64,000 bases of DNA from an uncultured Candidatus Saccharibacteria bacterium (GCA_964358205.1 CAYHNZ010000001.1:3168-67167); one strand, 5' to 3'. Counted from the stretch's first letter, positions 7,043 to 36,832 are shown. Made by a program: numbers and translations. Notes: generated by a model from the letters alone, not told the origin.

Positions 7043-10000
7043 ATGGCTCCACAGATTCAACGTGCCAGACGGCGATTTGACGGAGTTTACCAAGCCACTA
7101 GGGGAAAAATCCTTTGCGAGTACAATCTCCACCCAGTCAGGTTCTTCTCGGTATTTTTTTCCGTAGTTGTGTTACTCGGAGTAATCGCCTTCTTTAAGCC
7201 GGTTAGTGCCAGTATCGGTCTGCATCTAGACCAACGGGAGCTACAAAACAAATACCCGAATTTTTGGACATTGGCCGAACAAAAGAAGATCTCTCCAAGC
7301 AGCGATAAATATTTTATTGGAGACGAGCCGGTAGTGCCAAGTTCAAGCCCAGTTGTACTGGCCGTGGCCAGCGATTCTACAAACATTGAAGTAACCGCCG
7401 ACAGCGCGCACGAAGATATTGGTCAAAATCCTAACCAGTTCACAAAAAGCGTTAGCGTCGAACAGGTTGAAAGGGGGACGAAAATCTCCCAAAAGGAGAC
7501 CGATGGGCAAGCTGGCCTGTACAGAATCAAAGCCCAAGACAGGGTGACCGGTGCTGTTACGGCTGAAGAAACCATCGCTTGGGGGGTATTGGCGTTCAAC
7601 CCAGACTATTCAATCTACCCGACTGATACATCCGCCACTTTGGCGATGGCGGTCCTTGATGACCGAGGCAAGATGATCTGTGACGCCTCGCTGACGATCG
7701 AGATTACCGATCCAAACGGCAACAAAAAAATCTTATCGACCGAAAATGAGCTAGTGCTGGTAAATAATGCGTGTCTAATCTACGGCCCTACTTCTGAACC
7801 AGATTATATTGCCAATTATCAAACCGGCACTGAAGGCGATTATCAAGTCACGATAAAGGCACGTGTAGGAAGCGGTGTACGAACGCTCCACGACAAGTTT
7901 TCAGTTAAAGATAATCAGCCGTTTTACTTGCAGCGAGTCGGGGCGACTCGGACTTTTCCGAACGCTGAATATGTCTACAAACTTAATTTTCAGCCCAAAG
8001 TTGACGGCCAATATCAACTCACCGAAACTGTGCCGGCCGAGTTCATTATTTCCGACACCAGCGCCAAGATTACAGAGGTCGGTGATGTCAAAAAATTAGT
8101 CTGGCAAGTTGACGCCAAAGCTAAAGCAGACCAAACGTTGATGTTCGGTTACAAAGGGCCGCTCAAATCACCGCATCTTTATACTTTCGGCCCCGCCGAA
8201 GTCAGCTATGTCGCTGACGCTCGCTCTTCGTCGATAACTCAAAGTCAGCAATCAGCCAGCCGCAAGCTGCAAGCTGAAAGCTGGACCGAACCTCGGGCCT
8301 GGCAGATCGCCTCCGATGCGCCCTCCACCGTCAACTGGGATGGCAGCTCAAGTGCCAACTGGTCAGATGGCGCCAACTGGTCAACCAATGCCATACCACA
8401 GGCTGGCGACAACTTAGTTTTCCCGGCTGGTGCTGCAAATAAATCCAATTCCAACGATCTCGGCGAAAATATGCTGTTTAACTCGATTACTTTTAATGAC
8501 AGTGGCTACACCCTGGCTGGCAACACAATTATTGTCGGCCAAGGATTAAACGGCATCACCGACGCCGTAGTTTCTGGCGGAAACACCATTAGTCTTAACT
8601 TGCGCGTTGATGTAACTCGTTGGTTAACTGTCACCAATAGCGGTGAAACGTTAACAATTTCGGGAACGATTGCTGGCGTTGGCGGTATCACCAAAGAAGG
8701 TCAAGGCAAGTTGGTTCTATCTGGCGCAAATACCTACGGCGGCGTCACCAAAATTAACGGCGGTGATATTAGCGCACGAAGCAACACGGCTCTCGGCACC
8801 ATCGCCACCGGCACGGAAGTTGTAGGAGAAGCGGCGTTAGAATTACAAGGCACAATCGCTATCGGTCGCGAGCCGCTAACGCTGCGTGGCTACGGCGAAT
8901 CGAGCGGCGGCGCGCTTAAGAACGTTTCGGATAGTAATAGTTTTGATGGGCTGATCACTATTGCCGGTATCGCTGAAATTCAATCTGATTCTGGCACACT
9001 CACGCTAAACGGCGGCGTCACTGGTGCGGCAATCCCACTTGTTCTTGATGGGGCTGGCAATATTACGTTTGCCAAAGCCCCGGTCGCAAACACCAGCGGC
9101 TTAATCACTAAAAACGGCGCCGGGACGCTAACGTACAATTTCCCTAACACCTATACTGGTTTGACAACCGTCAATGCCGGGACGCTGACCTACGGGGTCG
9201 ATAACGCGATACTGTCTGGTGGTATCACCGTTAACGGCGGGACTGTCGATATCGCCACGTTCTCCGATATGGTCGGAACGGTGACGCTCGGGACGCTGGC
9301 CGGTGGGAGCGGCATTATTACTGGCTCGACCGGTGTGTTGAGCAGTGCGTCGTATGTGGTGTATGTCGGAACGATTAGCGCCATTATCGCCGGTGACGGT
9401 GGCACTTTAGCGAAATCGACCCCGGGAACGGTGACCCTAACTCGTCCAAATCTATTCAGCGGTGCGACCACGGTCACCGTCGGCACCCTGAAGATTCAAG
9501 ACAGCTTGGCGCTGGGCGTGATCGACGGCATTACCACTGTTTCCGCCGGTGCGACGTTGCAAGTTGATGGCACTGGCTTGTCGATCCCCGAATTTATAAC
9601 TATCTCGGGTGTCGGCCTTTTAAACCAAGGTGTGATCTGGAATTCAACCGGCAGCAACACCGTTACTGGCCTGGTGACCATGGCGGCCGCTTCAACTATT
9701 AAGGCTGATGTTAGTACTACCATTACGTACGCGACGAACGGTTTCACTGGAGCGTTCGGCTTAACCGTCAACGGGGATGGAGACACGACAATTTCCGGGC
9801 CGATTGCGACGACGAGCGGTACGCTCTCAAAAAATGGCCCTGGCACGCTCACCCTCACCGCCTTCAATCCCTACACCGGGGCCACCACAATCAATACCGG
9901 CACGCTCACCTTGAACAGTAACGGCGCCATCACTATGTCAGCTTCGATCGCCATCAACTCAAACGGGAAACTAATCGCTGATAACAGCAGCGTGGTCACT

Positions 10001-13000
10001 GATCGCATTGGCGACGCTGTCGCCGTCTCCATGAACGGTGGCTCTTGGGACTTTTACGGTAGCTCCAGTACCAATACGCTCGCGACCGCCGGCACGCTCA
10101 CGATGACCGGCGGGAAGAATGCCATCACCGTTTTTGCCGGTACCGGCGGTTACACGATTATGCGGTTTGCTTCATTTTCCCGGACCGCTGGCGCCAGAGG
10201 CCTATTTCGAGGTGCTAGTCTGGGCGCGACCCCAGCGGCCAACGTGGCCACAATTTTGTTCACCACGGCTCCAACGCTGCTCGGCGACGATGGCGTGGCC
10301 GGGACCTCGGCCGTCAGTATTATGCAGGGCGTATTTGGTGACAACTCAACCTCCGGAACTGGGACCGACATGGTCACCTACGGTCGCGGCAACAATAATG
10401 GCTTACGGCTCTTGAACGGCGCTGGCTTCAGCAATGAATACACCACAAATTTCTTGACCACCAACGCTAATATTAAAATCTCGTCCGCTACCGCCGCTAT
10501 CACTTCGCAAATTAATTCGCTCATTCTCGATTCCGGCGCCAGTATCACTAACCCCGGTTCGGCCCAAACAATCACTTTTATGTCCGGCAATATTCTTAAC
10601 CTTGAGGCTAGCGGGTCGATTGCCGGTGCTAACACCACCCTGGCCGCCGGAGCGGTTGAGTTTAGTATTAGCACGCCCCAAAGCCTCACGATCTCGTCTC
10701 TCATTACTACCACGGGCGGACTGACCAAAGGCGGCACAGGCACACTAACCTTCTCTACCGCCAAGACGTACACCGGTCTGACTTCGGTTAACGATGGAAC
10801 CTTGATCTACGGCATTAACGATGCGATTAGCTCGGGTGCGGTTACAGTCAACGACGCCACCTTAGATATCGCTACTTTTACTGACACTGTTGGGGCGGTC
10901 GTGGTCCAAGGCGGCACCATTACCGGGACTAGCGGTGTCCTGACAGCAACCTCCTACGATCTTCGGGCCGCCACGATAAATGCAATTTTAGCAGGCTCAG
11001 GAACGCTAACCGTGGTAAACACCAACGAACGCACCGATGCCGTCACGACGCTATCTAGGGACAATACCTTTACTGGTTCGATTGCGCTGACGAGTGGAGT
11101 CTTAAAGCTTGGTGGTGCTGGCGGTGGATCAAACACCCCCTTGGGGACAACTGCGGCAGGCATTACGATGACGAGCGGGGCGATGTTAGATCTGAATGGC
11201 TACACGCTTGTAACGAGTGAAGCAATTTCAGCGACCGGCACTGGCATTGCTCTACAGGGCGCAATTATTAACAGCTCAGCGAGTACGGTCACATATAACG
11301 GTGTGATTACGCAAACCGCGGCTGCTCGGATTGGGGCAAATTATGGGAAGATTATCATCGGGACCGGCGGCATCACTGGCACCTTTAACCTAACTCTTGG
11401 TGGCTTTGGCGATATTGACGTGACGAGTGCTATCACTATTAGCACCGGCACGATCACCAAAGACGGTTTCGGAATTTACACACCTTCAAGTGCGAGTTCT
11501 ACATACACCGGTCTGACGACGGTTAGCGCCGGAACACTGAAGCTTGGAGTTTCGGGCGGTGCAACGAATACCCCGTTGGGGACTAATGCTGGCGGTGTGA
11601 CCGTTACCGCCGGTGCGACGCTTGATATGAATGGCTTCTCTTTGGCGACAGTCGCCGATACCTTAACGATAAATGGAACTGGTTCCGGGACCGGAGATTT
11701 TGCAGCTGGCGCATTGGTGAATTCATCTGGAACGGGCGTTACATATGTCGGGGCTATCGTTCTCGGCTCAGCGACAACCGTCAAATCAAACTCTGGAACA
11801 ATCACCCTAACAACCGGCGGTATTACGGGTGCGTTTGCCTTAACGCTGGGTGGTACGGCGAGTAGTACAATTTCTGGTGTGATCGCGACCGCTGCCGGGA
11901 CGATCATCAAGATTGATACCGGGACGTGGACGTTGTCGAGCGTAAATACCTACACGGGCGCAGCGACAATTTACCAAGGAACAATTAAGAATGGGATCGC
12001 CGCTGCGGCCGGCGGTGGTCCGCTAGGGACGGCTGCTGGGGCAACAACAATTTTTAGCGGCGGCGTACTAGACATGAATGGTTTTTCGCTTAGCGCCTTA
12101 GCAGAAGGGTTAACGATCAACGGCTTCGGCATCGAGAGCGGTGGCGCCATGGTCAATAACTCTGGAAGCGGCGTAACCTATTTGGGGACACGGGCCCTCG
12201 GGTCTGACACTCGAACCACCAACTCCGGCGCCGGCCTGTTAACCCTAAGTGGAATTCAGAGCGGCGCCTTTGAATCTCGCTACGGGGGAGCGGGCAATAT
12301 CACCATTTCGGTGGCGATTGCCGCGACCGCCTCATCATTCTGGAAAGATGGGGCCGGAACAGTCATCTTGAGCGCCGCTAACGGTCATACCGGGGTGACG
12401 ACGGTCGCGGCTGGGACCTTACAATACGGTATTCTCAACACGCTGGCAGCTGGCGCGGTGGTAGTGAACGGCGGAACGCTCAACATCGTTTCGTTTAGCG
12501 ATACGGTCGGTGCGGTGACGTTAGTTGACGGTATGATTTCAGGTACAACCGGAATATTAACAGCAACCGGATACACTTTTGAAAGTGGCACGATCAGCGG
12601 AATTATCGCTGGTGCGGTGGCCGTCAATAAGTACACGGCCGGTACGGTTGTCATCTCCGGCGTCGAAACGATCTCCAGTACCCTGACTATCCACGCCGGA
12701 ACAATCGAGATCAGCGGCTCTGGTTCGGCGGTCGGTGTCACGGCAATTACTATCAACCTCGGTGCGACCTTAACGCTTGATAATTCAACGACGGCTGTGG
12801 CCAGTCGTCTGCTTGATACGATTGTCCTGACCATGAACGGCGGTAATTTTAATTACAAGGGCAATACCGCCAGCACCGCCGCCGAGACGATCGGACAGCT
12901 CCTTTTTTCATCTGGTCACAACACGGTTACCGTGACGCCGGGCGCCGGCGGATCGACGACGCTGACGGCGGCGACTAACCCGGGCATCAATCGTACGGCC

Positions 13001-16000
13001 GGCGCGACAGTGTTGTTTCGTGGGACAAGTCTTGGCTCGACCCCGGCCGCCAACATCTCGACCTTAAAGTTTACAACGGCGCCGATCGTTGTCGGCGGCG
13101 GCGGCGGTACGGGTACCACCACCATCAGTATTATCAAAGGCGCGTATGGGGACAATTCCCTGACTGGAACAGGGACAGACATGGTGACCCATAACGTTGG
13201 GAACACCAACGGTTTGCGACTTCTGAACGGACCTGGGTTTTCCGGTGAGTATGCAGCGAACCTGGGTACCGCTAGTGCCAACGTGAAATTGACAGGGGAT
13301 ACGGCCGCCACGACGACCAATACCAATTCGATTGTTCTGAACGGTGGCGGCGTCACGAACGCCTCGGTGACGTTGCCGATCGCCGCCACCGCCTTAGCCG
13401 GAAACATTTTAATTGCGACCGCCCATAACATTGCCGGCGCGAATACGGTGCTTGGTATAACAACATTCGAACTCAATGTTTTAGCGAACGCGGCCTCAAC
13501 CGTTTCGGCCACCGTTGGTACGGCCACGACTGGGTCGCTTACCCTGAGCGGGAGCGGGAATGTGACCTTTAGCGCGGCGAATCCATATACCGGTACAACC
13601 TTTATTAATAATGCGACGTATACCTATGGCGTGGCTAACGCGATCAGTTCCGGTGCGGCAACGGTGATTGGCGGCACCTATAATCTTAACGGCAACTCCG
13701 ATACGATCGGCGCCCTGAACGCGACAGGTGGCACCATTGCCACCGGCGCGGGCACCTTAACGCTTGGCGGTACTGTCACTACCGTCGCCAACGCCAATGT
13801 AACCTCGATAATTACTGGGAACCTCGCGCTGGGGGCAAACCGAATCTTTAACGTTGGTGACGGCCTGGTCGATAACGACCTCGTTGTTTCGGCGACGGTC
13901 ACCGGCGCCTTTACCGTGACGAAAAGTACGGGCACTGGGGTCTTAGTATTATCGGCGACCGACAGTACCTATAGCGGTAGCACCACGATTAGCACCGGAA
14001 CGTTTCGGTTCGGCAGTGGGGGGAGTGGCGCTAACGGTCCGCTCGGGACGACGGCCGCGGCGACTATTATTTCTAGCGGTGCGTCTCTTGATCTGAATGG
14101 CTATTCGTTAGCGACTGCCGAAGGACTGACTATCAGCGGTACGGGTGTTGGGGCAAACGGGGCAATTATGAACACATCATCGGCCGCCGCAACTTACCAG
14201 GGTCTAATAATCCTCGGCGCGGCGGCAACGATTACGTCGAACTACGGCGATATTACCATTTCCAATACCGGCAGTATGACTGGTACCGGATTTGCGTTGA
14301 CCTTGCGCGGTGCCGGGAATGGTTCAATAGCCACTCAAGTCAATACTTCCACGGGTGGTTCAAGGGTTAAAAATGGCTTAGGCACCTGGACGGTTTCGGG
14401 CGATGGTGGCTACACCGGCGTAACGACAATTACTCTGGGCGTATTAAAACTGGGTGCGGCTGGTGGCGCGACTAATACGCCGCTCGGCACAACCGGTACC
14501 AATACGACGATTGCCAGCGGAGCGATGCTGGACTTAAATGGTTTTACTCTTGGTACGGCCGAGCCCTTATCGATACAAGGCACCGGTATCGCCAACGCCG
14601 GGGCGATTACAACCAGCTCGGGGATCGCGACGAGTTACTCGGGGGCAATTACGATTGCGACCGCTTCCCGTATAACGAACTATGGCAACGGGACATTCTC
14701 ACTCAGCGGTGCAATTGCAGGCGGTGCCGTGGCCTTAACGACCGTCAACGCGCCGGGAACAATTACCCAGACAAGCGCCAGCGTCTGGTCGGGTACGACA
14801 TCGTCTCTCACAAAAGAAGGCTGGGGGACGACGATTTTGGCGGGTCAAAACTCAATCACTGGCTCGATGACCGTCAGTTCCGGCACTCTCCAGCTCGGGG
14901 CAAACGGCGGCGCGGCGAATACTCCGACCGGGACTATTGCCGGAGGCGTGATTGTTTCGGCCGGTGCCGTGTTTGATTTGAGCACCTTCGTGTTGGGCGG
15001 CGCATCCACCTGGGAGCCACTAACCCTTAACGGTTCGGGCATCAAAAACGGCGGCGCCTTAATTAGTGCCGCCACCAGCGGTAATAACTTTGGCGTGGTG
15101 ACTTATGGATCGAGTGCCCGCGTCGTCAACAACGCTTCGGGGACGATTACCTTTGTCGGTGCGCCAACCGGAACCTTTAACTACGTTTTCGGCGGGACAG
15201 GTCCGATCACTATTACGGGTGTAATGCCGGCGGTGGCGATTACCATCACCAAATATGACTCTGGGATCCTGCTCTTAAATGGTGCACATCTCAGCACTGG
15301 ACTGATTCGTATTAACGGCGGGACGGTCAGATACGGCGTGGCCAATGCGATTCTGGTGAACGCCGTGACCATTGCCGGCGGGACGCTCGATATTAACGGT
15401 CAGACCGATGCCGTTGGTGCCATTATCCTGATGAGCGGCACGATTACCAACGGCGGCGCGGCCGCGACGCTAACTGGAACAGCCTATACGTTTTACGGGG
15501 GCGCCATTACCGCAGTGCTGGCCGGAACGGCAATCGCAATGGCGAAAAACACCGGCGCCACGCTGACGATCAACCAAGCTTTGACGAATACCGGTACCTT
15601 AACTATCAACGCCGGCACGGTCCAGTATTTGGCTAGCAACGTCGTGGCTAACACCGCCGCGGTCATCGTGGCTGGCGGCACGCTGGATATCGGCGCGCAA
15701 ACGGATACCGTGGCCGCCGTGACCCTGACCAGCGGAGCGATCACTGGCAGTACCGGAATTTTAACCGGCACTTCCTACGCCGTTGCCAGTGGCACGATCA
15801 GCGCGATTTTAGCCGGCGCGGTTACTCTGGCCAAAACCACGGCCGGTACGGTCACGCTCTCGGGTGTGAATACGTACTCGGGCGTTACGACGATCAGCGG
15901 TGGAGTCTTAAGTGTTGGCACTATTGGTAATGGTGGTGTGGCCGGGAACCTGGGAGCGGCGCCGGCCGCCGCATCCAATATTGTTTCCAATACCGGTACC

Positions 16001-19000
16001 GGGACATTGCAATATACCGGCACGACCTCGTCGACTGACCGCAGCATTACGACGACCGCGGCGATCACTTTAAATCTTGATATTACAAATCCTGCCGCAG
16101 CGCTAACCATTTCGGGGACGACGACTGTAACGACTGCGCCGTTCACGAAAGTTGGACCAGGGACACTGATCTTGTCGGGCACGAACGGTCATACGGGGCT
16201 AACCACGGTCCTGGCTGGGACGCTAAAAGAGGGCGTCGCCAGTGCACTCTCAACGGGAGCGTTAACTGTTACGAACGGGACATTCGATCTCAATAACTTC
16301 TCGGATAGTGTCGGGACAACCACTCTTACTAACGGTGGGCAGATGATCGATTCCGGCGGTACGACCGCGGTTTTGACTAGTACAGCAACTTACGCATTGC
16401 AAAGCGGTAAGATCAGCGCCCGACTGGGTAGCGCCGTTGCTGCCGGTATCTCTAAAACGACAACGGATCGGGTTATTCTTTCCGGCGACAATACGTTTAC
16501 CAGCACCTCTATAGCCTTGAGTGCCGGCGCCCTGAACCTTCAAAGCAACAACGCGCTCGGCGCTGCCGGTACGACCTTAACGACCACCATTACCTCGGGC
16601 GCGGCTCTGGAAACCCAAAATAATATTACGATTCCCAGCACCAAGCCAATTACGGCTAACTTGGGCGGCGTTAACAACAGTGGCGCAATTAGGAATATCG
16701 CCGATGCCAATACGATTCAAGCCAACATCGTGCTTGGTGTGACCAACACTCGGGTGAACTCGGACAGCGGCACCCTCACCTTCCCAACCGTCTCCGGTAA
16801 CACCAACAATTTAATTGTGGGCGGCGCCGGCAATACGACAGTTACCGGTATTATTAGCACTACATCTGGCACCTTAACCAAAGACGGTGCAGGCACATTG
16901 ACGCTTCAAGGCAATAACAGTTATACGGGTCTGACAACGATCAGCGCCGGTGTCGTGAATGTTCGGCATGCCGCAGGTCTTGGCACAATTGCGGCCGGTA
17001 CCTCCGTCGCCGCTGGCGCGGCCCTGCAAATACAAGGGATCGTCACCGTTGGCGCCGAAACGTTAACGCTCAATGGCACGGGCGTTGCCAGCGACGGAGC
17101 GTTAAGAAATATCACCAACAATAATACTTATCAGGGTAATATTACTCTCAATACTACCAGTTCGATTGGCTCCGATGCCAACACGCTCACTCTAAGCGGA
17201 ACAATAACTGGCGGTGCATCCATTGGCTTAACTAAAGTTGGTGCCGGCGAGGTGTCAGCTTCCAATACGGTCACGGTTGGTGGCGACCTAACGATTTCAG
17301 CGGGAACCTTAACTGCCTCCAGCAACACCATTACGGTTAGCGGTAACTGGTCTAATAGCGGCACATTTACGGCCGGCGCGAGTACGGTGGTATTAAATGG
17401 GGGCGCCACCCAGACTTTATCCGGAACCATGACCACCACCAGCGCATTTAACAACCTAACCGTGACTAACGCCTTCGGTACCAACGCCTCGGACTGCGAA
17501 CGAACCAGCTTTGTGGCCTCGATCGATTTCGATGCTGCGGCCACGGTGACAACAAACCTAGTCTTTACGACCGCCAGTACCAGGGTGGAATTCAACAGCG
17601 GGTCAACCTATGCTTTTACCAACATCAACTGGAACGGTCAGGCATCAGGTACGAAAATTTACTTCCGCAACTCGGACGCTTCCGGTACCTGGTTATTAAA
17701 AGTCACCGGCACCCAAACTGCGGTCTCGTTTATTAATGTCTCCCGCTCCGACGCATCGGTCGTCGGCGGTAACGCCATTGTCGCCAACGACGGCACCAAC
17801 ACCGATTGCACCAATAACACCAACTGGACATTCCCGAGTAGCAATACTGCCCCAAATGCGCCAACTAGCTTGGCCCAAAAGCGCACAACCGATGTGGCGC
17901 TCGCCACCGGTGATTGGACCAATGAAACATCCGTTAAGTTTACGGCAACCGCCAGCGACACCGATAATCCCGACACACTGAAGCTCTGTATTGAAGCAAT
18001 TGCGATTGCCAGCAATTTTACTAACACCGACACCGGCTGTGGAAGCTTAACCGCCTATAGCGGTACACCAATCACTGTTACCGTCACCTTGTCTGGCCTA
18101 GTTACCAGTACCGAGTACAAATGGCAGGCGAGAATCAAGGACACGGCTGATGCCGCTTCGGCCTGGAGCGATTACGCCGCCAATGGGTCTAGTCGCGATT
18201 TTGGTGTTGATACAACCGCTTGTACGACCGCCACCGTTTACGATGGCAGTTCCGCTGGTGTAGATGCCGACTTTAACGATAGCTCGCTAACGGCGCTATC
18301 AGGCAACTGGGATGCTTTTACTTGTACTGTTTCGGGTCTGCAGAAGTATGAGTACTCAATCGGCGTGACCGCCGGCGGTACGACAATCAAGGGCTGGACC
18401 GATAACTCGACGACAGCATCGGTCACCGCCGGTAGCTTGATTTTACACACTAATGAGCTCTATTTCATTAACATCCGAGCGACCGACAACGCCAGCAACG
18501 TTTCGTCAGTGGTGTCGTCTAATGGCCAACAGGTTTTACCGTCGTTAAGTTTTACTATGGGCAGTAACACGATTAGCTTTACTAATTTAAATAGCACCAA
18601 CAACCGACTCGACACTAAAACCGTTAGTCTAACCACCAGCACTAATGCTTTCGGCGGTTATATTATTCGCCAGTACGCCGGTGGCTTACTAACCGACGGT
18701 ACCAATACCATACCGATGTTCTCGGCTGGCTCGTACGCCGCACCAGCTTCGTGGGGGACAGGGTTTTGCTCGGGTACAACTTGTGGTTACGGCTATACAT
18801 CTAACGACACAACTATCCAAGGCAGCAACTTATTTAGTAGTGGCACGCTTTATGCCCCCTTTAGCCAAACTCCTTCTGGCGATATTGTGGCCGATCACAC
18901 CGCCGCCGTTGACGGTACGAGCGGTGCAGTTAGCAACGAGTCGTTCACTATTACCCATAAAGTCGCCGTAACCGCTCTACAAGCGGCCAAAACCTATCAA

Positions 19001-19036
19001 GCAACAGTCTACTTGATTGTCACTGGCACTTTTTAA
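7043..19036 (+). CDS. Giant (3,997 aa) cell-surface repeat protein: N-terminal TM/signal anchor, >30 autotransporter-associated beta-strand (PATR-like) repeats 'TxTGxTxVNxGTLxLG', C-terminal Ig/FN3-like region
   Basis: Single uninterrupted ORF; repeated units such as 'NTYTGLTTVNAGTLTYGV', 'NSYTGLTTISAGVVNV', 'NPYTGATTINTGTLTL' throughout. Confidence 0.85.
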   Translation: MAPQIQRARRRFDGVYQATRGKILCEYNLHPVRFFSVFFSVVVLLGVIAFFKPVSASIGLHLDQRELQNKYPNFWTLAEQKKISPSSDKYFIGDEPVVPSSSPVVLAVASDSTNIEVTADSAHEDIGQNPNQFTKSVSVEQVERGTKISQKETDGQAGLYRIKAQDRVTGAVTAEETIAWGVLAFNPDYSIYPTDTSATLAMAVLDDRGKMICDASLTIEITDPNGNKKILSTENELVLVNNACLIYGPTSEPDYIANYQTGTEGDYQVTIKARVGSGVRTLHDKFSVKDNQPFYLQRVGATRTFPNAEYVYKLNFQPKVDGQYQLTETVPAEFIISDTSAKITEVGDVKKLVWQVDAKAKADQTLMFGYKGPLKSPHLYTFGPAEVSYVADARSSSITQSQQSASRKLQAESWTEPRAWQIASDAPSTVNWDGSSSANWSDGANWSTNAIPQAGDNLVFPAGAANKSNSNDLGENMLFNSITFNDSGYTLAGNTIIVGQGLNGITDAVVSGGNTISLNLRVDVTRWLTVTNSGETLTISGTIAGVGGITKEGQGKLVLSGANTYGGVTKINGGDISARSNTALGTIATGTEVVGEAALELQGTIAIGREPLTLRGYGESSGGALKNVSDSNSFDGLITIAGIAEIQSDSGTLTLNGGVTGAAIPLVLDGAGNITFAKAPVANTSGLITKNGAGTLTYNFPNTYTGLTTVNAGTLTYGVDNAILSGGITVNGGTVDIATFSDMVGTVTLGTLAGGSGIITGSTGVLSSASYVVYVGTISAIIAGDGGTLAKSTPGTVTLTRPNLFSGATTVTVGTLKIQDSLALGVIDGITTVSAGATLQVDGTGLSIPEFITISGVGLLNQGVIWNSTGSNTVTGLVTMAAASTIKADVSTTITYATNGFTGAFGLTVNGDGDTTISGPIATTSGTLSKNGPGTLTLTAFNPYTGATTINTGTLTLNSNGAITMSASIAINSNGKLIADNSSVVTDRIGDAVAVSMNGGSWDFYGSSSTNTLATAGTLTMTGGKNAITVFAGTGGYTIMRFASFSRTAGARGLFRGASLGATPAANVATILFTTAPTLLGDDGVAGTSAVSIMQGVFGDNSTSGTGTDMVTYGRGNNNGLRLLNGAGFSNEYTTNFLTTNANIKISSATAAITSQINSLILDSGASITNPGSAQTITFMSGNILNLEASGSIAGANTTLAAGAVEFSISTPQSLTISSLITTTGGLTKGGTGTLTFSTAKTYTGLTSVNDGTLIYGINDAISSGAVTVNDATLDIATFTDTVGAVVVQGGTITGTSGVLTATSYDLRAATINAILAGSGTLTVVNTNERTDAVTTLSRDNTFTGSIALTSGVLKLGGAGGGSNTPLGTTAAGITMTSGAMLDLNGYTLVTSEAISATGTGIALQGAIINSSASTVTYNGVITQTAAARIGANYGKIIIGTGGITGTFNLTLGGFGDIDVTSAITISTGTITKDGFGIYTPSSASSTYTGLTTVSAGTLKLGVSGGATNTPLGTNAGGVTVTAGATLDMNGFSLATVADTLTINGTGSGTGDFAAGALVNSSGTGVTYVGAIVLGSATTVKSNSGTITLTTGGITGAFALTLGGTASSTISGVIATAAGTIIKIDTGTWTLSSVNTYTGAATIYQGTIKNGIAAAAGGGPLGTAAGATTIFSGGVLDMNGFSLSALAEGLTINGFGIESGGAMVNNSGSGVTYLGTRALGSDTRTTNSGAGLLTLSGIQSGAFESRYGGAGNITISVAIAATASSFWKDGAGTVILSAANGHTGVTTVAAGTLQYGILNTLAAGAVVVNGGTLNIVSFSDTVGAVTLVDGMISGTTGILTATGYTFESGTISGIIAGAVAVNKYTAGTVVISGVETISSTLTIHAGTIEISGSGSAVGVTAITINLGATLTLDNSTTAVASRLLDTIVLTMNGGNFNYKGNTASTAAETIGQLLFSSGHNTVTVTPGAGGSTTLTAATNPGINRTAGATVLFRGTSLGSTPAANISTLKFTTAPIVVGGGGGTGTTTISIIKGAYGDNSLTGTGTDMVTHNVGNTNGLRLLNGPGFSGEYAANLGTASANVKLTGDTAATTTNTNSIVLNGGGVTNASVTLPIAATALAGNILIATAHNIAGANTVLGITTFELNVLANAASTVSATVGTATTGSLTLSGSGNVTFSAANPYTGTTFINNATYTYGVANAISSGAATVIGGTYNLNGNSDTIGALNATGGTIATGAGTLTLGGTVTTVANANVTSIITGNLALGANRIFNVGDGLVDNDLVVSATVTGAFTVTKSTGTGVLVLSATDSTYSGSTTISTGTFRFGSGGSGANGPLGTTAAATIISSGASLDLNGYSLATAEGLTISGTGVGANGAIMNTSSAAATYQGLIILGAAATITSNYGDITISNTGSMTGTGFALTLRGAGNGSIATQVNTSTGGSRVKNGLGTWTVSGDGGYTGVTTITLGVLKLGAAGGATNTPLGTTGTNTTIASGAMLDLNGFTLGTAEPLSIQGTGIANAGAITTSSGIATSYSGAITIATASRITNYGNGTFSLSGAIAGGAVALTTVNAPGTITQTSASVWSGTTSSLTKEGWGTTILAGQNSITGSMTVSSGTLQLGANGGAANTPTGTIAGGVIVSAGAVFDLSTFVLGGASTWEPLTLNGSGIKNGGALISAATSGNNFGVVTYGSSARVVNNASGTITFVGAPTGTFNYVFGGTGPITITGVMPAVAITITKYDSGILLLNGAHLSTGLIRINGGTVRYGVANAILVNAVTIAGGTLDINGQTDAVGAIILMSGTITNGGAAATLTGTAYTFYGGAITAVLAGTAIAMAKNTGATLTINQALTNTGTLTINAGTVQYLASNVVANTAAVIVAGGTLDIGAQTDTVAAVTLTSGAITGSTGILTGTSYAVASGTISAILAGAVTLAKTTAGTVTLSGVNTYSGVTTISGGVLSVGTIGNGGVAGNLGAAPAAASNIVSNTGTGTLQYTGTTSSTDRSITTTAAITLNLDITNPAAALTISGTTTVTTAPFTKVGPGTLILSGTNGHTGLTTVLAGTLKEGVASALSTGALTVTNGTFDLNNFSDSVGTTTLTNGGQMIDSGGTTAVLTSTATYALQSGKISARLGSAVAAGISKTTTDRVILSGDNTFTSTSIALSAGALNLQSNNALGAAGTTLTTTITSGAALETQNNITIPSTKPITANLGGVNNSGAIRNIADANTIQANIVLGVTNTRVNSDSGTLTFPTVSGNTNNLIVGGAGNTTVTGIISTTSGTLTKDGAGTLTLQGNNSYTGLTTISAGVVNVRHAAGLGTIAAGTSVAAGAALQIQGIVTVGAETLTLNGTGVASDGALRNITNNNTYQGNITLNTTSSIGSDANTLTLSGTITGGASIGLTKVGAGEVSASNTVTVGGDLTISAGTLTASSNTITVSGNWSNSGTFTAGASTVVLNGGATQTLSGTMTTTSAFNNLTVTNAFGTNASDCERTSFVASIDFDAAATVTTNLVFTTASTRVEFNSGSTYAFTNINWNGQASGTKIYFRNSDASGTWLLKVTGTQTAVSFINVSRSDASVVGGNAIVANDGTNTDCTNNTNWTFPSSNTAPNAPTSLAQKRTTDVALATGDWTNETSVKFTATASDTDNPDTLKLCIEAIAIASNFTNTDTGCGSLTAYSGTPITVTVTLSGLVTSTEYKWQARIKDTADAASAWSDYAANGSSRDFGVDTTACTTATVYDGSSAGVDADFNDSSLTALSGNWDAFTCTVSGLQKYEYSIGVTAGGTTIKGWTDNSTTASVTAGSLILHTNELYFINIRATDNASNVSSVVSSNGQQVLPSLSFTMGSNTISFTNLNSTNNRLDTKTVSLTTSTNAFGGYIIRQYAGGLLTDGTNTIPMFSAGSYAAPASWGTGFCSGTTCGYGYTSNDTTIQGSNLFSSGTLYAPFSQTPSGDIVADHTAAVDGTSGAVSNESFTITHKVAVTALQAAKTYQATVYLIVTGTF

Positions 19037-23165: not shown

Positions 23166-23217
23166 CTCCGGGATCGGCTAAGGGCAGGCCTGCAGAATCT
23201 GGATCTGCCAACCTTGG
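23166..23217 (+). other. tRNA-Gln(CUG)-like 5' fragment (acceptor 5', D arm, anticodon arm, variable loop and T-stem 5' strand; lacks T loop and 3' acceptor)
   Basis: 'CTCCGGGATCGGCTAAGGGCAGGCCTGCAGAATCTGGATCTGCCAACCTTGG' aligns to the full tRNA-Gln at 23281. Confidence 0.55.
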
Positions 23218-23245: not shown

Positions 23246-23453
23246 TCCCGAGTCGTCTACTACGAACTGACACTTTCTGTTCCGGGATCGTCTAGCGGTA
23301 GGACTGCAGATTCTGGATCTGCCAACCTTGGTTCGAATCCAAGTCCCGGAACAAAGTGTGTCAGTGAGAAGCGAGTCCGCCAACAAGCGGACGACAATGG
23401 TAGGACGCTAGGTTCTGGTCCTAGTAACCGGGGTTCGAATCCCTGCTCGGGAA
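23246..23453 (+). other. Interrupted 'outer' tRNA-Gln(CUG)-like gene: 5' piece 23246-23259 (acceptor + D-stem + first D-loop nt) and 3' piece 23397-23453 (rest of D loop to acceptor), separated by a 137-nt insert that contains the complete tRNA-Gln
   Basis: TCCCGAG...CTCGGGA acceptor pairing; 3' piece has anticodon stem CTAGG/CCTAG, loop TTCTGGT (CUG), T arm CGGGG-TTCGAAT-CCCTG. Confidence 0.5.
23281..23351 (+). tRNA. tRNA-Gln (anticodon CUG), complete cloverleaf, no encoded CCA; flanked by 12-13-bp inverted repeats (CTGACACTTTCTG / CAAAGTGTGTCAG)
   Basis: TCCGGGA-TC-GTCT-AGCGGTA-GGAC-T-GCAGA-TTCTGGA-TCTGC-CAAC-CTTGG-TTCGAAT-CCAAG-TCCCGGA-A; close to E. coli tRNA-Gln. Confidence 0.85.
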
Positions 23454-23711: not shown

Positions 23712-24188
23712 CTACGATGAAGGAATGTCGCCCTTCCAACTCCACAATAGCTCATAACCCTTGAGATAATTCTCGTCTCGTACCCGAAGGCAAGTGACAA
23801 CGTAATTCATTTCTTCAATTACACCGTCCTCAAGGTCGGTCATTTTTGTTTCAATCGAGCAAAGGTACATAAATTTCCCAATCATTTTGAAGAAGCAAAG
23901 GCTGCCTCGCTTGCTGGTTTTATTAAGATAAACTCGATCAGGGAAACGCACAATTTTAGCCATATTTTTCAAAACTACATCAAACTCCTCGGCAGGCTTT
24001 CGGTCGTATAGGTGTTTGATAACTCTGGTTGTAATGTGCACTTTAGCGATAGTTAAATTGCAGCCTTGCCTGGTAGCGAGGGTCAAATTAGTAAGATAAA
24101 GAGTCAAATCGACAACAATGGCCTCTGGGTCTGTTCCTTCAATACGTTCCGAGAAGGCTTTATCGAGACTGCTTTCCATCTCGTCCAT
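23712..24188 (-). CDS. Hypothetical protein (158 aa)
   Basis: ORF only. Confidence 0.3.
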   Translation of the reverse strand: MDEMESSLDKAFSERIEGTDPEAIVVDLTLYLTNLTLATRQGCNLTIAKVHITTRVIKHLYDRKPAEEFDVVLKNMAKIVRFPDRVYLNKTSKRGSLCFFKMIGKFMYLCSIETKMTDLEDGVIEEMNYVVTCLRVRDENYLKGYELLWSWKGDIPSS

Positions 24189-29113: not shown

Positions 29114-29612
29114 GATGTACAAAGTATTTTATGGCTTGGCAGTTTTGGTGGCGTTGGCGCTGATAATTATCGGCGTCGTGGCTAGTCGCAAAAACGATAG
29201 CCCAACCAACGGCGACTCCTTTAACACCGACCAACTCCAAGACGCTGAACAGAAAACCCCTTAGAGCCTGACAATAATCTAACCGCAACATCCAAACTAA
29301 TAACAATACTACTTGCCGGTTAAAACAGCCCCATTTCGTCTGCAAACCACTCATCCTTCCTCACCGTATCTCAATATGGTTCGTCGGTCTTCGTGGTTTT
29401 CGCTTGAAATGGGACAGTTTTTCCTCGGCATTAGATTTTGTCAGGCTCTTAAGGGCAAGGCTAAAGTTATAAGGCTAAAGTCTGAAGTAAGTGACAACTT
29501 TCAAGTATTAAGTAATTAGAACTTATTACCTATTACTTACTTTGAACGGACCGCCATCCGCCAGCGGCGGTGAAAAGCGAGGGATAGCGACAAATAACTA
29601 ATTGATCAGGTA

Positions 29613-30023
29613 TCAGGCGATTTGCTCAATATGTAGAGCGTGAGCTTGTTTTAGCAATTTCTTGTCATAGCTGAATAATTTAGAAATACCTGCGTCCAAC
29701 ATTAGCTGTAGTATCAATGCATCATTCACGCCGGTGTTTAATTTTTGGCCCAGGTCAGCATAGCGTAAAGCGAAATCAATACTCGGTGAAGGCTCAACTA
29801 GGATTAGGCCTGGTAGTTTAGCGATTCTTTCCACGGCCCTAACGATATCAGCATCGGGAGAGAGCTTTGATAAGACAAATAATACTTCCTCGATAATATG
29901 GTGCGAGGTTACAAGTTGCTCGTCATCATCTACCAGTTTTTGAAGGAGTCCAATGGTTTGGGAATGGTTATCAGATGTTTCATCTAAGTAATAGACCAGC
30001 ACATTAGCGTCTAGCAAAACCAT
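29613..30023 (-). CDS. vapC: PIN-domain ribonuclease toxin (VapC-like)
   Basis: 'MVLLDANVLVYYLDE...' with conserved acidic residues of PIN fold; 136 aa. Confidence 0.7.
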   Translation of the reverse strand: MVLLDANVLVYYLDETSDNHSQTIGLLQKLVDDDEQLVTSHHIIEEVLFVLSKLSPDADIVRAVERIAKLPGLILVEPSPSIDFALRYADLGQKLNTGVNDALILQLMLDAGISKLFSYDKKLLKQAHALHIEQIA

Positions 30024-30198
30024 TGGACTTCTTTCATAACCCCTATTTGACAGCTTAACTGGGAGCGATTTTGAGCGAAAGGCACGATCTTGTGAGAAGG
30101 CATAGACACATCTACGCTGACGAGCAAATCGTGACTTGTAGCCAAAGTCGCCAGTTGAGTTTGATCAATGGGGTTATGAAAGAAGTCCATTATTTGAG

Positions 30199-30438
30199 CT
30201 ACTCGTATTTACTCTCGGCAAGCTCGTTGAGATATTCCGGGGTTAATGGCCGACCGGCTTTTTCCTGCAGACGAAAGCCTCCGCCAATAACCTTGCGACT
30301 TTTAGCTGTAATAGAAAGCGGTTCAAGACGAGCAATGGGTCTGCCCGCCTTGCCAATGACAATCCGCTCTCCATTAGCCGCCCTCTCAAGTAGCTTGGAA
30401 AAGTTTGTTTTCGCTTCGTGTACATTGATTACATTCAT
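30199..30438 (-). CDS. Phd/YefM-family type II antitoxin
   Basis: 'MNVINVHEAKTNFSKLLERAANGERIVIGKAGRPIARLEPL' canonical Phd/YefM N-terminus; 79 aa. Confidence 0.75.
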   Translation of the reverse strand: MNVINVHEAKTNFSKLLERAANGERIVIGKAGRPIARLEPLSITAKSRKVIGGGFRLQEKAGRPLTPEYLNELAESKYE

Positions 30439-30539
30439 AACACTAGTCTAGTCGACTAAGTGGACTCTGTCAACAGCGACATTCAGTAATTTCGTAATTC
30501 TGTAATTCCCCGCTGTGACTGATTTAGGTTATTCTGGTA

Positions 30540-36309: not shown

Positions 36310-36496
36310 CTCCTGACGTCGCCACAATCAGATCCAGGGTTACTACTTAAAAGCGGGATTAAGCCCGAGTAGCTGATTGGGGAGCACTAATCATCACCAG
36401 CTGCGTCAAGTAGTCGACTTAGGCCGGTTTTTTCGCTAAAATATCAGAGCTAAAAGGTTTTTTGGTCCATCGTCTACTTGGAGCAACAGAGCGACA

Positions 36497-36596
36497 AGCG
36501 AGCCCGAGCTTACGAGGGCGACAATGGCCTAGGACGCCTGGTTCTCACTTCGACCCGCCGGCTGGCGGGGAGAAGCGAGCTGATACTTACAAACTT
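36497..36596 (+). other. tRNA-Glu-like fragments upstream of the complete tRNA-Glu: D-arm piece 'TCGTCTA' + 47-nt insert + 'ATGGCCTAGGACGCCTGGTTCTCA' (D loop to anticodon CUC), then a second insert carrying the CCGCCGGCTGGCGG hairpin
   Basis: Aligns with inner tRNA-Glu 'TCGTCTAGTGGCCTAGGACACCTGGTTCTCAT'. Confidence 0.5.
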
Positions 36597-36673
36597 GGCG
36601 TGTTCGTCTAGTGGCCTAGGACACCTGGTTCTCATCCAGGAGATCACGGGTTCGACTCCCGTACACGCCGCCA
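36597..36673 (+). tRNA. tRNA-Glu (anticodon CUC), complete cloverleaf with encoded CCA; flanked by a perfect 9-bp inverted repeat GCTGATACT (36579-36587) / AGTATCAGC (36678-36686)
   Basis: GGCGTGT-TC-GTCT-AGTGGCCTA-GGAC-A-CCTGG-TTCTCAT-CCAGG-AGATC-ACGGG-TTCGACT-CCCGT-ACACGCC-G-CCA; matches bacterial tRNA-Glu D-loop signature. Confidence 0.85.
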
Positions 36674-36686
36674 AATCAGTATCAGC

Positions 36687-36775
36687 GACATCCAGGAGAT
36701 CACGGGCCTTCGCCCGCCGAAGCGGGGCTACTGCCCGCGAAGGCGGGGGTTCGACTCCTTCGTCACTGACTCGGT
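36687..36775 (+). other. tRNA-Glu-like 3' fragment ('ATCCAGGAGATCACGGG' anticodon-stem 3' strand + variable loop + T-stem 5' strand) continuing the upstream outer copy, followed by GC-rich hairpins and 'GGGGGTTCGACTCC' T-loop-like sequence
   Basis: Read directly; resumes the inner-tRNA sequence from anticodon-loop position 38 onward, then diverges. Confidence 0.45.
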
Positions 36776-36832
36776 TGATTTTTGTCATCAAGAGATATAC
36801 ACTAGCGCAGTATTCGTACCTAAGGAGTTGTT

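What the first reader, a model, noticed from the sequence alone, without database searches (positions are those of the whole stretch)
36490..36780. tRNA-Glu locus shows the same nesting: complete tRNA-Glu(CUC) flanked by a perfect 9-bp inverted repeat, inserted at anticodon-loop position 37/38 of an outer tRNA-Glu-like copy that also carries a D-loop insert
The outer tRNA-Glu-like copy reads TCGTCTA at 36491-36497 (D-stem strand plus the first D-loop nucleotide), then a 47-nt insert, then ATGGCCTAGGACGCCTGGTTCTCA. After a second insert it resumes with TCCAGGAGATCACGGG. The second insert contains the CCGCCGGCTGGCGG/GAGAAGCGAG motif and the IR-flanked complete tRNA-Glu. It lies exactly between anticodon-loop positions 37 and 38, the canonical intron position. 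Both inserts begin CT.(C/G)GA and end (A/G)GCGACA(AT), as does the Gln-locus insert, and they sit at the identical D-loop position in both loci. The conservation of position and sequence across two different tRNA species argues against random decay.
Basis: seen in the sequence. Interest (0 to 1): 0.85.

Follow-up and report, generated by a model that had tools for sequence, protein, structure and literature searches.

The report
Hairpin insertion element nesting tRNA genes
In an ultra-small groundwater bacterium (Patescibacteria), a previously undescribed 33-60-base hairpin element sits exactly in the loops of tRNA-Glu and tRNA-Gln genes, sometimes carrying a whole replacement tRNA, so each locus has one live tRNA surrounded by broken copies. 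This looks like mobile DNA, not a spliced intron.

Summary
It is identical in independent assemblies.

Window layout:
- Intact tRNA-Glu(CUC) at 36597-36673, flanked by a perfect 9-bp inverted repeat.
- It lies inside a 143-nt insert at position 37/38 of an outer tRNA-Glu-like copy.
- That outer copy also has a 47-nt insert at 14/15. The tRNA-Gln locus is built the same way.

All inserts are copies of one element ('E'): CTNN-GA-[hairpin 1]-GA-N'N'AG-CGAG-[hairpin 2]-CGACA.
- The 4-bp closing helix covaries in six complementary variants.
- Orthologous copies differ mainly by compensatory changes.
- Rfam has no match.

E also occurs away from intact tRNA genes:
- solo in intergenic DNA;
- next to a toxin-antitoxin cargo;
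- antisense inside an in-frame insertion in mnmA;
- as a present/absent insertion between two strains.

In related genomes the orthologous locus holds one intact tRNA-Glu followed by units of an 8-nt anticodon-loop stub, E and a tRNA 3' half.

The outer Glu copy has no acceptor 3' strand and is dead. The outer Gln copy would be a perfect tRNA if its insert were removed.

Best reading: a new strand-specific hairpin insertion element that targets tRNA loops, with the outer pieces as disrupted remnants. RNA-level excision is not excluded.

The parts
36414..36442 (+). Promoter-like site (TCGACT-17-TAAAAT) about 20 nt upstream of the outer tRNA-Glu 5' end. It is the only promoter-like site in the locus.
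   Evidence: The -10 region and its spacing to the tRNA start are conserved in relatives L244, L248, L257 and L277.
36464..36476 (+). Outer tRNA-Glu 5' fragment GGTCCATCGTCTA (positions 1-14, with one C lost). It is the remnant of the resident 'type 1' tRNA-Glu(CUC) that is intact in relatives (GGTCCCATCGTCTA...).
36477..36523 (+). Element copy E_C (47 nt) at tRNA position 14/15: CTTG-GA-GCAACAGAGC-GA-CAAG-CGAG-CCCGAGCTTACGAGGG-CGACA.
   Evidence: (fold -14.3 kcal/mol, z = -2.25).
36524..36547 (+). Outer tRNA-Glu positions 15-37 (ATGGCCTAGGACGCCTGGTTCTCA), 96% identical to the inner tRNA.
   Evidence: repeat D1.
36548..36690 (+). Element copy E_B (143 nt) at tRNA position 37/38: CTTC-GA-CCCGCCGGCTGGCGGG-GA-GAAG-CGAG-[hairpin 2 carrying the whole inner tRNA]-CGACA.
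   Evidence: (fold -61.4 kcal/mol, z = -4.2).
36579..36587 (+). Left arm (GCTGATACT) of the perfect 9-bp inverted repeat that forms hairpin 2 of E_B. The right arm is at 36678-36686.
   Evidence: repeat I4.
36597..36673 (+). Intact inner tRNA-Glu(CUC), 'type 2', with CCA encoded. It is the only functional-looking tRNA-Glu at this locus.
   Evidence: (Rfam tRNA, 62 bits).
36691..36706 (+). Outer tRNA-Glu positions 38-53 (TCCAGGAGATCACGGG), identical to the inner tRNA.
   Evidence: repeat D2.
36707..36746 (+). Third insert in the outer T arm. It is a G+C-rich double hairpin that starts with the element-like CTTCG but lacks the CGAG...CGACA core. Unclassified.
   Evidence: (repeat I1).
36747..36766 (+). 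Outer T-loop remnant GGGTTCGACTCC followed by a degraded 3' end. There is no acceptor 3' strand complementary to GGTCC(C)A.
   Evidence: (repeat D3).
23167..23217 (+). Gln-0, a 5' fragment (positions 1-53) of a third tRNA-Gln(CUG). It is 84% identical to the inner tRNA, has a compensatory D-stem change, and breaks off after the 5' strand of the T stem.
   Evidence: (repeat D2).
23246..23259 (+). Outer tRNA-Gln (Gln-1), positions 1-14: TCCCGAGTCGTCTA.
23260..23396 (+). Element copy E_D (137 nt) at position 14/15: CTAC-GA-[hairpin 1 carrying the whole inner tRNA-Gln]-GA-GAAG-CGAG-TCCGCCAACAAGCGGA-CGACA. The closing helix has one A.A mismatch.
   Evidence: (fold -58.3 kcal/mol, z = -5.5).
23281..23352 (+). 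Intact inner tRNA-Gln(CUG).
   Evidence: 59 bits.
23397..23453 (+). Outer tRNA-Gln positions 15-72. Joined to 23246-23259 it gives a canonical tRNA-Gln(CUG) with a perfect 7-bp acceptor stem.
   Evidence: ARAGORN on the in-silico spliced sequence.
29540..29592 (+). Solo element copy E_A in intergenic DNA: CTTT-GA-...-GA-AAAG-CGAG-GGATAG-CGACA.
   Evidence: A 75%-identical paralogous unit is in L134.
29593..30480 (.). An 888-bp cargo holding a PIN toxin and a Phd/YefM antitoxin, both on the - strand. It lies between two copies of AGCGACA (29586-29592 and 30474-30480). The DNA after the second copy (TTCAGTAATT...) is what directly follows the minimal element in relatives.
   Evidence: (PF02604).

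Best explanation
The inserts are copies of a previously undescribed small structured insertion element, here called E. Its core is 33-60 nt: a 4-bp closing helix, tandem GA/GA, hairpin 1, then CGA-G[hairpin 2]C-GA-CA. It is carried by a narrow Patescibacteria lineage.

Proposed mechanism:
- E inserts at the DNA level, strand-specifically and without a target duplication longer than 2 nt.
- It inserts immediately 3' of an A in sequence that is single-stranded when the strand folds. In tRNA genes these are the conserved loop residues A14 and A37. An E-like variant inserted after A58.
- Its hairpin tips tolerate large cargo: a whole tRNA gene with its own leader/trailer stem, or a toxin-antitoxin module.
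- An insertion into a single-copy tRNA gene is survivable only if an intact copy of the same tRNA stays at the locus.
- What persists is therefore either an element carrying a replacement tRNA nested in the dead gene (this window) or an intact gene followed by element-interrupted fragments (the relatives).
- The inner tRNAs are the functional genes. They are transcribed from the old promoter of the outer gene and released by ordinary tRNA processing. The outer pieces are remnants.

Shown: the element, its structure, its positions, its dispersal, one filled/empty site, and the dead state of the outer Glu copy.
Inferred: single-strand DNA targeting, the enzyme that moves it, the selection filter, and how the cargo got in.
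For: 1. One motif in all inserts. Four exact core matches lie on one strand against about 0.27 expected. About 17 copies were found in related contigs.
2. Structure under selection. The closing helix is 97% paired with six fully complementary variants; the covariation score is 0.60 against 0.16 in shuffles, and 0 of 500 shuffles reach it. The orthologous copies L244/L248 differ only by the compensatory pair C4->T / G16->A. The tRNA-linked copies differ by the compensatory pair C28->T / G32->A plus one loop change.
3. Not restricted to tRNAs:
- solo intergenic copies;
- an antisense copy inside an in-frame insertion of about 52 aa in mnmA;
- a toxin-antitoxin cargo bracketed by AGCGACA repeats.
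4. Recent mobility. A 39-nt E-like insert after A58 is present in L277 and absent in L278. These two contigs encode the identical IleRS protein.
5. Outer Glu is dead. No tRNA is found after in-silico removal of the inserts. Its 5' end is orthologous to an intact, different tRNA-Glu in relatives.
6. ARAGORN finds exactly one intact tRNA-Glu(CUC) at each of the five loci that hold one (window, L244, L248, L257, L277). L278 has none.
7. All tRNA-linked copies are co-oriented with the tRNA.
8. No Rfam ribozyme or intron family matches.
Against: - No transposase, integrase, HUH nuclease or reverse transcriptase is present in the 64-kb window. The enzyme is unknown.
- Cargo sits inside hairpin loops rather than between the two end modules. 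This is unusual for known transposons and typical of structured RNAs.
- In-situ compensatory evolution of orthologous copies suggests the structure matters to the host, not only for transposition.
- Outer Gln has all 21 stem pairs intact and would be a perfect tRNA if the insert were excised.
- The tRNA 3' halves in the arrays all keep perfect T stems. The type 2 half is 40/40 identical between the window and L244, whose IleRS proteins are 85% identical. This is unexpected for old junk.
- The constant 8-nt stub in the stub-E-3'half units is not explained by simple insertion plus random deletion.
- Only fragments of the genomes could be read.
Confidence: 0.5

Rival explanations
1. E is a genuine RNA-level intervening sequence, a new kind of bacterial tRNA intron or processing module. 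It would be removed from the precursor either by its own catalysis or by a host nuclease plus an RtcB-type ligase. The outer tRNA-Gln would then be functional, and the nested tRNA would be released from the intron.
For: - Insert positions are the classic loop positions 14/15 and 37/38, always in the sense orientation.
- Conserved junction nucleotides, variable stems, covariation, and cargo at hairpin tips are hallmarks of a structured RNA.
- Outer Gln minus its insert is a perfect tRNA.
- tRNA fragments next to E are unusually well conserved.
- Both splice sites lie at one junction in the predicted fold.
Against: - Outer Glu cannot form a tRNA even with all inserts removed.
- No locus seen depends on an interrupted gene.
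- E lies antisense within mnmA with the reading frame kept open through it. In L244 it lies antisense to its neighbouring genes.
- There is no bulge-helix-bulge junction, because the 5' end pairs inside the element.
- There is no Rfam ribozyme or intron hit at E <= 10.
- No RtcB or splicing endonuclease is in the window.
Confidence: 0.2
2. The mosaics are scars of repeated site-specific integration into the tRNA-Glu and tRNA-Gln genes by integrative elements. Such elements carry a tRNA 3' part that regenerates the gene and displaces the old 3' fragment. E would be part of the attachment site, or all that is left of these elements.
For: - In L244 an intact tRNA is followed, after a linker, stub and E, by an exact 36-nt second copy of its own 3' half. 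This is the classic pattern of a regenerated gene plus a displaced fragment.
- L257, L277 and L278 carry tandem stub-E-3'half units of about 45-50 nt of tRNA sequence, the size of typical identity blocks.
- Anticodon and T loops are known integrase crossover sites (general knowledge; Islander paper PMC4383910 listed).
- The toxin-antitoxin cargo is flanked by a 7-nt direct repeat.
Against: - No integrase or island body lies between the regenerated gene and the fragment. The linkers are only 0-24 nt.
- E interrupts the would-be crossover region in every fragment.
- The 3' halves have incompatible acceptor strands (TGGGACC, ACACGCC, CCAGAGC, TGGCGCC), so they cannot all have served the same 5' half.
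- The window shows nesting with 5' fragments piled upstream, which integration at a 3' identity block does not produce.
- E also occurs far from any tRNA.
Confidence: 0.2
3. The pattern is chance similarity, local duplication and decay, or an assembly artefact.
For: Several assemblies break at this locus, showing that it is hard to assemble.
Against: - Identical structure in independent assemblies from different samples.
- The motif is enriched far above chance and has conserved boundaries.
- Covariation in the closing helix.
- The same architecture appears at the orthologous locus of several related species.
Confidence: 0.02

Closest known systems
Rickettsia palindromic elements (RPEs) and other bacterial miniature hairpin repeats (REP/BIME, Correia, MITEs)
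   Same: - Short, non-coding, dispersed and hairpin-forming.
- Found in intergenic DNA and as in-frame insertions in protein genes (mnmA in L134).
- No enzyme is encoded.
- Lineage-restricted.
   Different: - The E core is much smaller (33 nt minimum).
- It is defined by conserved unpaired GA/CGAG/CGACA nucleotides with freely covarying stems.
- It inserts at exact tRNA loop positions in one orientation.
- It carries cargo, including whole tRNA genes, in its hairpin loops.
Archaeal non-canonical tRNA introns and their transposition (Thermoproteales); split and permuted tRNA genes
   Same: - Related short inserts at several loop positions (D, anticodon and T loops) of different tRNAs.
- Multiple inserts in one gene.
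- Evidence that the inserts spread between positions.
   Different: - The organism is a bacterium.
- The exon-intron junctions show no bulge-helix-bulge.
- At least one host copy is a dead gene.
- E also lies outside tRNAs and antisense in a coding gene.
- Splicing is not shown.
Displaced tRNA gene fragments left by integrative elements (Islander-type islands)
   Same: An intact tRNA is followed by direct-repeat 3' fragments that begin in the anticodon arm. Tandem accumulation occurs at one tRNA locus.
   Different: - There is no island or integrase between the copies.
- Every fragment is interrupted by E at 37/38.
- The fragments have different acceptor stems.
- The nested (not tandem) form in this window is not produced by such integration.
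IS200/IS605-derived palindrome-associated elements (single-strand 'peel and paste' transposition)
   Same: - Hairpins at both ends.
- Strand-specific insertion immediately 3' of a short motif.
- No target duplication.
- A preference for sequence that can be single-stranded.
   Different: - No TnpA was seen.
- The hairpin sequences are not conserved.
- Cargo is inside the hairpin loops.
- The resemblance is from memory and was not tested.
Group I introns in Patescibacteria tRNA genes (PMC13011429)
   Same: Same phylum, and insertion into the tRNA anticodon loop.
   Different: - Those are self-splicing introns with a group I fold, mainly at 35/36.
- E is 33-60 nt and has no Rfam intron match.

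Membership tests
Archaeal/eukaryal-type (bulge-helix-bulge) tRNA intron | Exon-intron junctions lie in two 3-nt bulges separated by a 4-bp helix. | tested here: not met
   The first 4 nt of E pair with N'N'AG inside the element, not with sequence next to the 3' junction. The 3' junction follows unpaired GACA.
Archaeal/eukaryal-type (bulge-helix-bulge) tRNA intron | Removing the insert(s) restores a functional tRNA. | tested here: inconclusive
   Met for outer Gln, which gives a perfect 72-nt tRNA. Not met for outer Glu, where no tRNA is found.
Archaeal/eukaryal-type (bulge-helix-bulge) tRNA intron | A splicing endonuclease and ligase are present in the genome. | not testable with these tools
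   None is in the 64-kb window. The rest of the genome could not be read.
Group I / group II self-splicing intron | The conserved catalytic core fold is recognisable by a covariance model. | tested here: not met
   Rfam scans at E <= 10 return only tRNA and noise. E is 33-60 nt.
Known small self-cleaving ribozymes (hammerhead, twister, twister-sister, pistol, hatchet, HDV-like, hairpin) | The sequence matches the family covariance model or conserved core. | tested here: not met
   No Rfam hit. The G[stem]C flanked by GA/GA resembles hammerhead stem II, but CUGANGA and GAAA are absent, as seen directly in the sequence.
Displaced tRNA fragment of an integrative element | A regenerated intact tRNA plus a direct-repeat 3' fragment. 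| tested here: met
   L244 has two identical 36-nt type 1 3' halves.
Displaced tRNA fragment of an integrative element | An island with an integrase lies between the regenerated gene and the fragment. | tested here: not met
   Only 0-24 nt of linker plus the stub and E lie between them.
Miniature dispersed hairpin repeat (RPE/REP/MITE-like) | Multiple dispersed copies in a genome, including non-tRNA sites. | tested here: met
   - Four copies in the window.
- Two copies in 8 kb of L134.
- Copies upstream of the ATPase gene in L244 and L248.
Miniature dispersed hairpin repeat (RPE/REP/MITE-like) | Insertion polymorphism (filled versus empty site) between close relatives. | tested here: met
   A 39-nt E-like insert is present in L277 and absent in L278. 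The insert is a diverged variant of the element.
Miniature dispersed hairpin repeat (RPE/REP/MITE-like) | Terminal inverted repeats and a target-site duplication. | tested here: inconclusive
   The tRNA-linked copies have no terminal repeats and at most 1-2 nt of boundary ambiguity. The longer L134 units do have AAGTCT-rich inverted arms.
IS200/IS605-type single-strand transposon derivative | A Y1 HUH transposase in the genome, and a conserved tetranucleotide at the left flank. | not testable with these tools
   The left flanks are TCTA, CTCA, TTCA, CTTA, GTAA and GTAG, almost always ending in A. No TnpA is in the sequence available.
Integron attC site | R''/R' core sites RYYYAAC ... GTTRRRY. 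| tested here: not met
   E starts CTNNGA and ends CGACA.

The most novel reading that the evidence does not exclude
E is a new class of functional nucleic-acid element, not passive junk. One possibility is a bacterial tRNA intervening sequence removed by a so far unknown ribozyme- or protein-based pathway. The other is the recognition structure of an unknown single-strand recombination system. Such a system would exchange tRNA parts and cargo at tRNA loops, building arrays of alternative tRNA-Glu 3' halves and swapping in whole replacement tRNAs. Both this phylum and this window are rich in PIN-type and other nucleases of families that include tRNA-cutting toxins, which suggests a possible arms race over tRNA sequence.
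Probability: 0.25. Interest if true: 0.9.

Novelty: new variant of a known kind. Interest (0 to 1): 0.72.

Why it matters
- tRNA genes in bacteria are thought to be interrupted only by group I or group II self-splicing introns, or split by integrating islands. Here a tiny structured element sits at exact loop positions of tRNA genes, nests whole replacement tRNAs, and leaves arrays of tRNA halves.
- This matters for annotation. Standard tRNA finders see only the inner genes and would misjudge the tRNA complement of such genomes.
- It matters for understanding genome dynamics in ultra-small bacteria with single-copy tRNA sets.
- It may also point to a new insertion or processing mechanism that recognises folded single strands.
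- If the element is excised from RNA, it would be a new type of bacterial tRNA intron.

Tried and rejected
- Rfam at gathering and at permissive thresholds on the Glu locus, the solo copy and L257 gave only tRNA hits.
- Hammerhead-like reading: the topology is similar but the core sequences do not match, so it was rejected by eye.
- Bulge-helix-bulge reading: rejected, because the 5' end pairs inside the element.
- Generic motif scan of viral contigs: 120 hits, all chance. The N/N' positions were complementary in 23% (25% expected) and none had a hairpin-1 stem. Two specific patterns found nothing.
- Genome-collection scan: 118 loci returned, of which 117 were chance hits in G+C-rich genomes. 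The one real hit (L134) also named the organism.
- Metagenome scan: 19 loci, one real (L257).
- Sigma-factor homologues: too few relatives.
- Homologues of the protein next to the Gln locus: none close, so no orthologous Gln locus could be examined.
- The idea that the tRNA cargo is its own mobile unit with CTGAYACT ends: the 8-mer is not repeated elsewhere.
- MAFFT could not align full-length element copies because of the variable loops. Covariation was therefore counted on the extracted closing-helix columns only.
- Literature searches found no description of this element.

Full report
**1. What is in the window**

ARAGORN and Rfam find only two tRNAs in the 64 kb: tRNA-Gln(CUG) at 23281-23352 and tRNA-Glu(CUC) at 36597-36673. 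The layout is:
- GGTCCATCGTCTA (36464-36476)
- a 47-nt insert (36477-36523)
- ATGGCCTAGGACGCCTGGTTCTCA (36524-36547)
- a 143-nt insert (36548-36690) that contains the intact tRNA-Glu between a perfect 9-bp inverted repeat
- TCCAGGAGATCACGGG (36691-36706)
- a third, G+C-rich 40-nt insert (36707-36746)
- GGGTTCGACTCC and degraded sequence

The Gln locus is built the same way:
- TCCCGAGTCGTCTA (23246-23259)
- a 137-nt insert holding the intact tRNA-Gln
- ATGGTAGGAC...CTCGGGAA (23397-23453)
- upstream, a further 5' fragment of a third tRNA-Gln (23167-23217)

The Glu locus is 100% or 99.9% identical in three other assemblies from different samples. The Gln locus is identical in two more. It is not an assembly artefact.

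**2. The inserts are one element**

All inserts share this plan: CTNN-GA-[hairpin 1]-GA-N'N'AG-CGAG-[hairpin 2]-CGACA.
- The core GANAAGCGAG occurs four times exactly in the window, all on the + strand. About 0.27 were expected (P = 2e-4).
- The fourth copy is solo, in intergenic DNA at 29540-29592.
- Folding gives the same two-hairpin shape for each copy.
- The tRNA cargo sits in the loop of hairpin 2 in the Glu copy and of hairpin 1 in the Gln copy.
- Rfam has no family for the element, even at E <= 10.

**3. Organism and relatives**

A pattern scan of the genome collection gave one true hit, a contig of 'Patescibacteria group bacterium isolate H43-bin183_1' from the same Hainich well. The IleRS gene of the window has relatives at 72-85% identity, some labelled Patescibacteria or Berkelbacteria.

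Gene order around the Glu locus is conserved in these relatives. At the orthologous site they carry an intact tRNA-Glu(CUC) beginning GGTCCCATCGTCTA. The window's 'outer' 5' piece is therefore the remnant of that resident gene. Downstream of the intact gene the relatives have units made of:
- an 8-nt stub, GRTTYTCA (tRNA positions 30-37)
- a copy of the element
- a tRNA-Glu 3' half (38 to the 3' end)

There is one such unit in L244 and L248, two in L257 and L277, and three in L278. In L244 the 3' half that follows the element is 40/40 identical to the window's inner tRNA. A further ...CGACA is followed by an exact second copy of the resident gene's own 3' half. ARAGORN finds exactly one intact tRNA-Glu(CUC) at each locus, except in the orphan array of L278, which has none.

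**4. Evidence that the structure matters**

Across the copies the 4-bp closing helix appears as six fully complementary variants: CTTT/AAAG, CTTC/GAAG, CTTG/CAAG, CTCT/AGAG, CTCC/GGAG and CTGC/GCAG. One further copy has a mismatch and one has a wobble pair.
- 97% of cells are paired.
- Seven cells have changes on both sides, against 1.9 in shuffles.
- The covariation score is 0.60 against 0.16, and 0 of 500 shuffles reach it.
- All slid registers fall to about 50-65% paired.

Most copies were found by the core motif or by their position, not by this pairing. The exception is 8209-8244.

The two minimal copies at orthologous sites differ by exactly two bases, which are a compensatory pair. The tRNA-linked copies of L244 and L248 differ by three bases, two of them a compensatory pair in hairpin 2. 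The pairing is on one strand, and wobble pairs occur. The element therefore acts as a folded single strand, either RNA or DNA.

**5. Evidence that it is an insertion element not tied to tRNA splicing**

(a) Solo copies lie in intergenic DNA, in both orientations relative to their neighbours. The copy upstream of the P-type ATPase gene is inverted in L244 relative to L248.

(b) In L134 an E copy lies antisense inside a palindromic unit of roughly 165 nt. This unit forms an in-frame insertion of about 52 aa in mnmA. The protein aligns to solved MnmA on both sides of the insertion.

(c) In the window an 888-bp PIN/Phd toxin-antitoxin module lies between the solo copy's AGCGACA and a second AGCGACA. 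The second copy is followed by exactly the flank that follows the minimal element in relatives.

(d) L277 and L278 encode the identical IleRS protein, yet L277 has a 39-nt E-like insert after A58 of a tRNA fragment that L278 lacks. The boundary ambiguity is 2 nt and there is no longer duplication.

(e) With all inserts removed, the outer Glu copy is still not a tRNA, because the acceptor 3' strand is missing.

**6. What argues the other way**

- With its insert removed, the outer Gln copy is a perfect tRNA.
- The tRNA-linked copies are all in the sense orientation and sit after the conserved loop residues A14 and A37. An E-like variant sits after A58.
- Cargo sits in hairpin tips, as in structured RNAs.
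- The tRNA halves in the arrays keep perfect T stems.
- The constant 8-nt stub needs a defined mechanism.
- No mobility enzyme was seen in the window.

I therefore keep RNA-level excision and integrase-type recombination as live rivals.

**7. Working model**

Only one promoter-like site lies upstream of the Glu locus, and it sits in front of the outer fragment. The inner tRNA would therefore be made from a precursor that starts at the old gene and would be released by normal 5' and 3' processing. I infer that insertions into single-copy tRNA genes survive only when an intact copy stays at the locus. That would explain why nesting always involves the same isoacceptor.

**8. Novelty**

Literature searches and the recent survey of group I introns in Patescibacteria tRNAs do not describe this element. 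It behaves most like miniature palindromic repeats such as the Rickettsia elements. It differs in three ways: precise tRNA-loop targeting, tRNA cargo, and arrays of interrupted tRNA halves.

Noticed in passing
L134 3-1091 (+), element at L134 206-265 (-): mnmA carries an in-frame insertion of about 52 aa encoded by an AAGTCT-rich palindromic unit with an antisense E copy. A second, inverted copy of the unit lies at about 2232-2380. The two copies therefore bracket the 3' part of mnmA and an S41 peptidase gene.
   Followed up: partly
window 29593-30480: A PIN toxin / Phd antitoxin module is bracketed by 7-nt direct repeats AGCGACA, right after the solo element. Relatives have only the 33-nt element at this site.
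   Followed up: partly
window 8209-8244 (-): A 36-nt E-like sequence lies antisense inside the 3997-aa ORF 7043-19036. It was found only with a descriptor that required the closing helix, so it may be chance.
   Followed up: no
window 23712-24188 (-): The small ORF next to the Gln locus has a weak, sub-threshold hit to PBECR3 (Barnase/EndoU/colicin E5-D/RelE-like nuclease), E = 1.6e-4.
   Followed up: no
L278 2040-2320: An orphan array of three stub-E-tRNA-Glu-3'half units has three different acceptor strands and no intact tRNA-Glu nearby. A fourth stub is followed by a truncated element start.
   Followed up: partly
L257 347-399 and L277 1347-1398: A 14-nt tRNA-Glu 5' fragment is followed by a degenerate element. 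Next comes the last ~10 nt of a tRNA ending in CCA, joined directly to the first base of the intact tRNA-Glu (a head-to-tail junction).
   Followed up: no
L257 728-1845: An insertion sequence with perfect 23-bp terminal inverted repeats and a 344-aa zinc-ribbon ORF without a Pfam transposase match lies between the tRNA-Glu array and the sigma-factor gene.
   Followed up: partly
L248 2061-2143 (-): A tRNA-Leu-like gene has only a 4-nt anticodon loop (ARAGORN 'tRNA-???').
   Followed up: no
window 36580-36588 and 23267-23275: The stems that enclose the two cargo tRNAs start with nearly the same sequence (CTGATACTT and CTGACACTT, 8 of 9). The motif is not repeated elsewhere in the window.
   Followed up: yes
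L001/L002 starts, L250, L253, L276: Several independent assemblies break at or next to the tRNA-Glu mosaic, as expected for a repeat-rich, possibly polymorphic locus.
   Followed up: no
L244 538-570 (-) versus L248 3323-3355 (+): The minimal element upstream of the P-type ATPase gene is inverted in L244, between inverted copies of TTCAGTAAT.
   Followed up: partly
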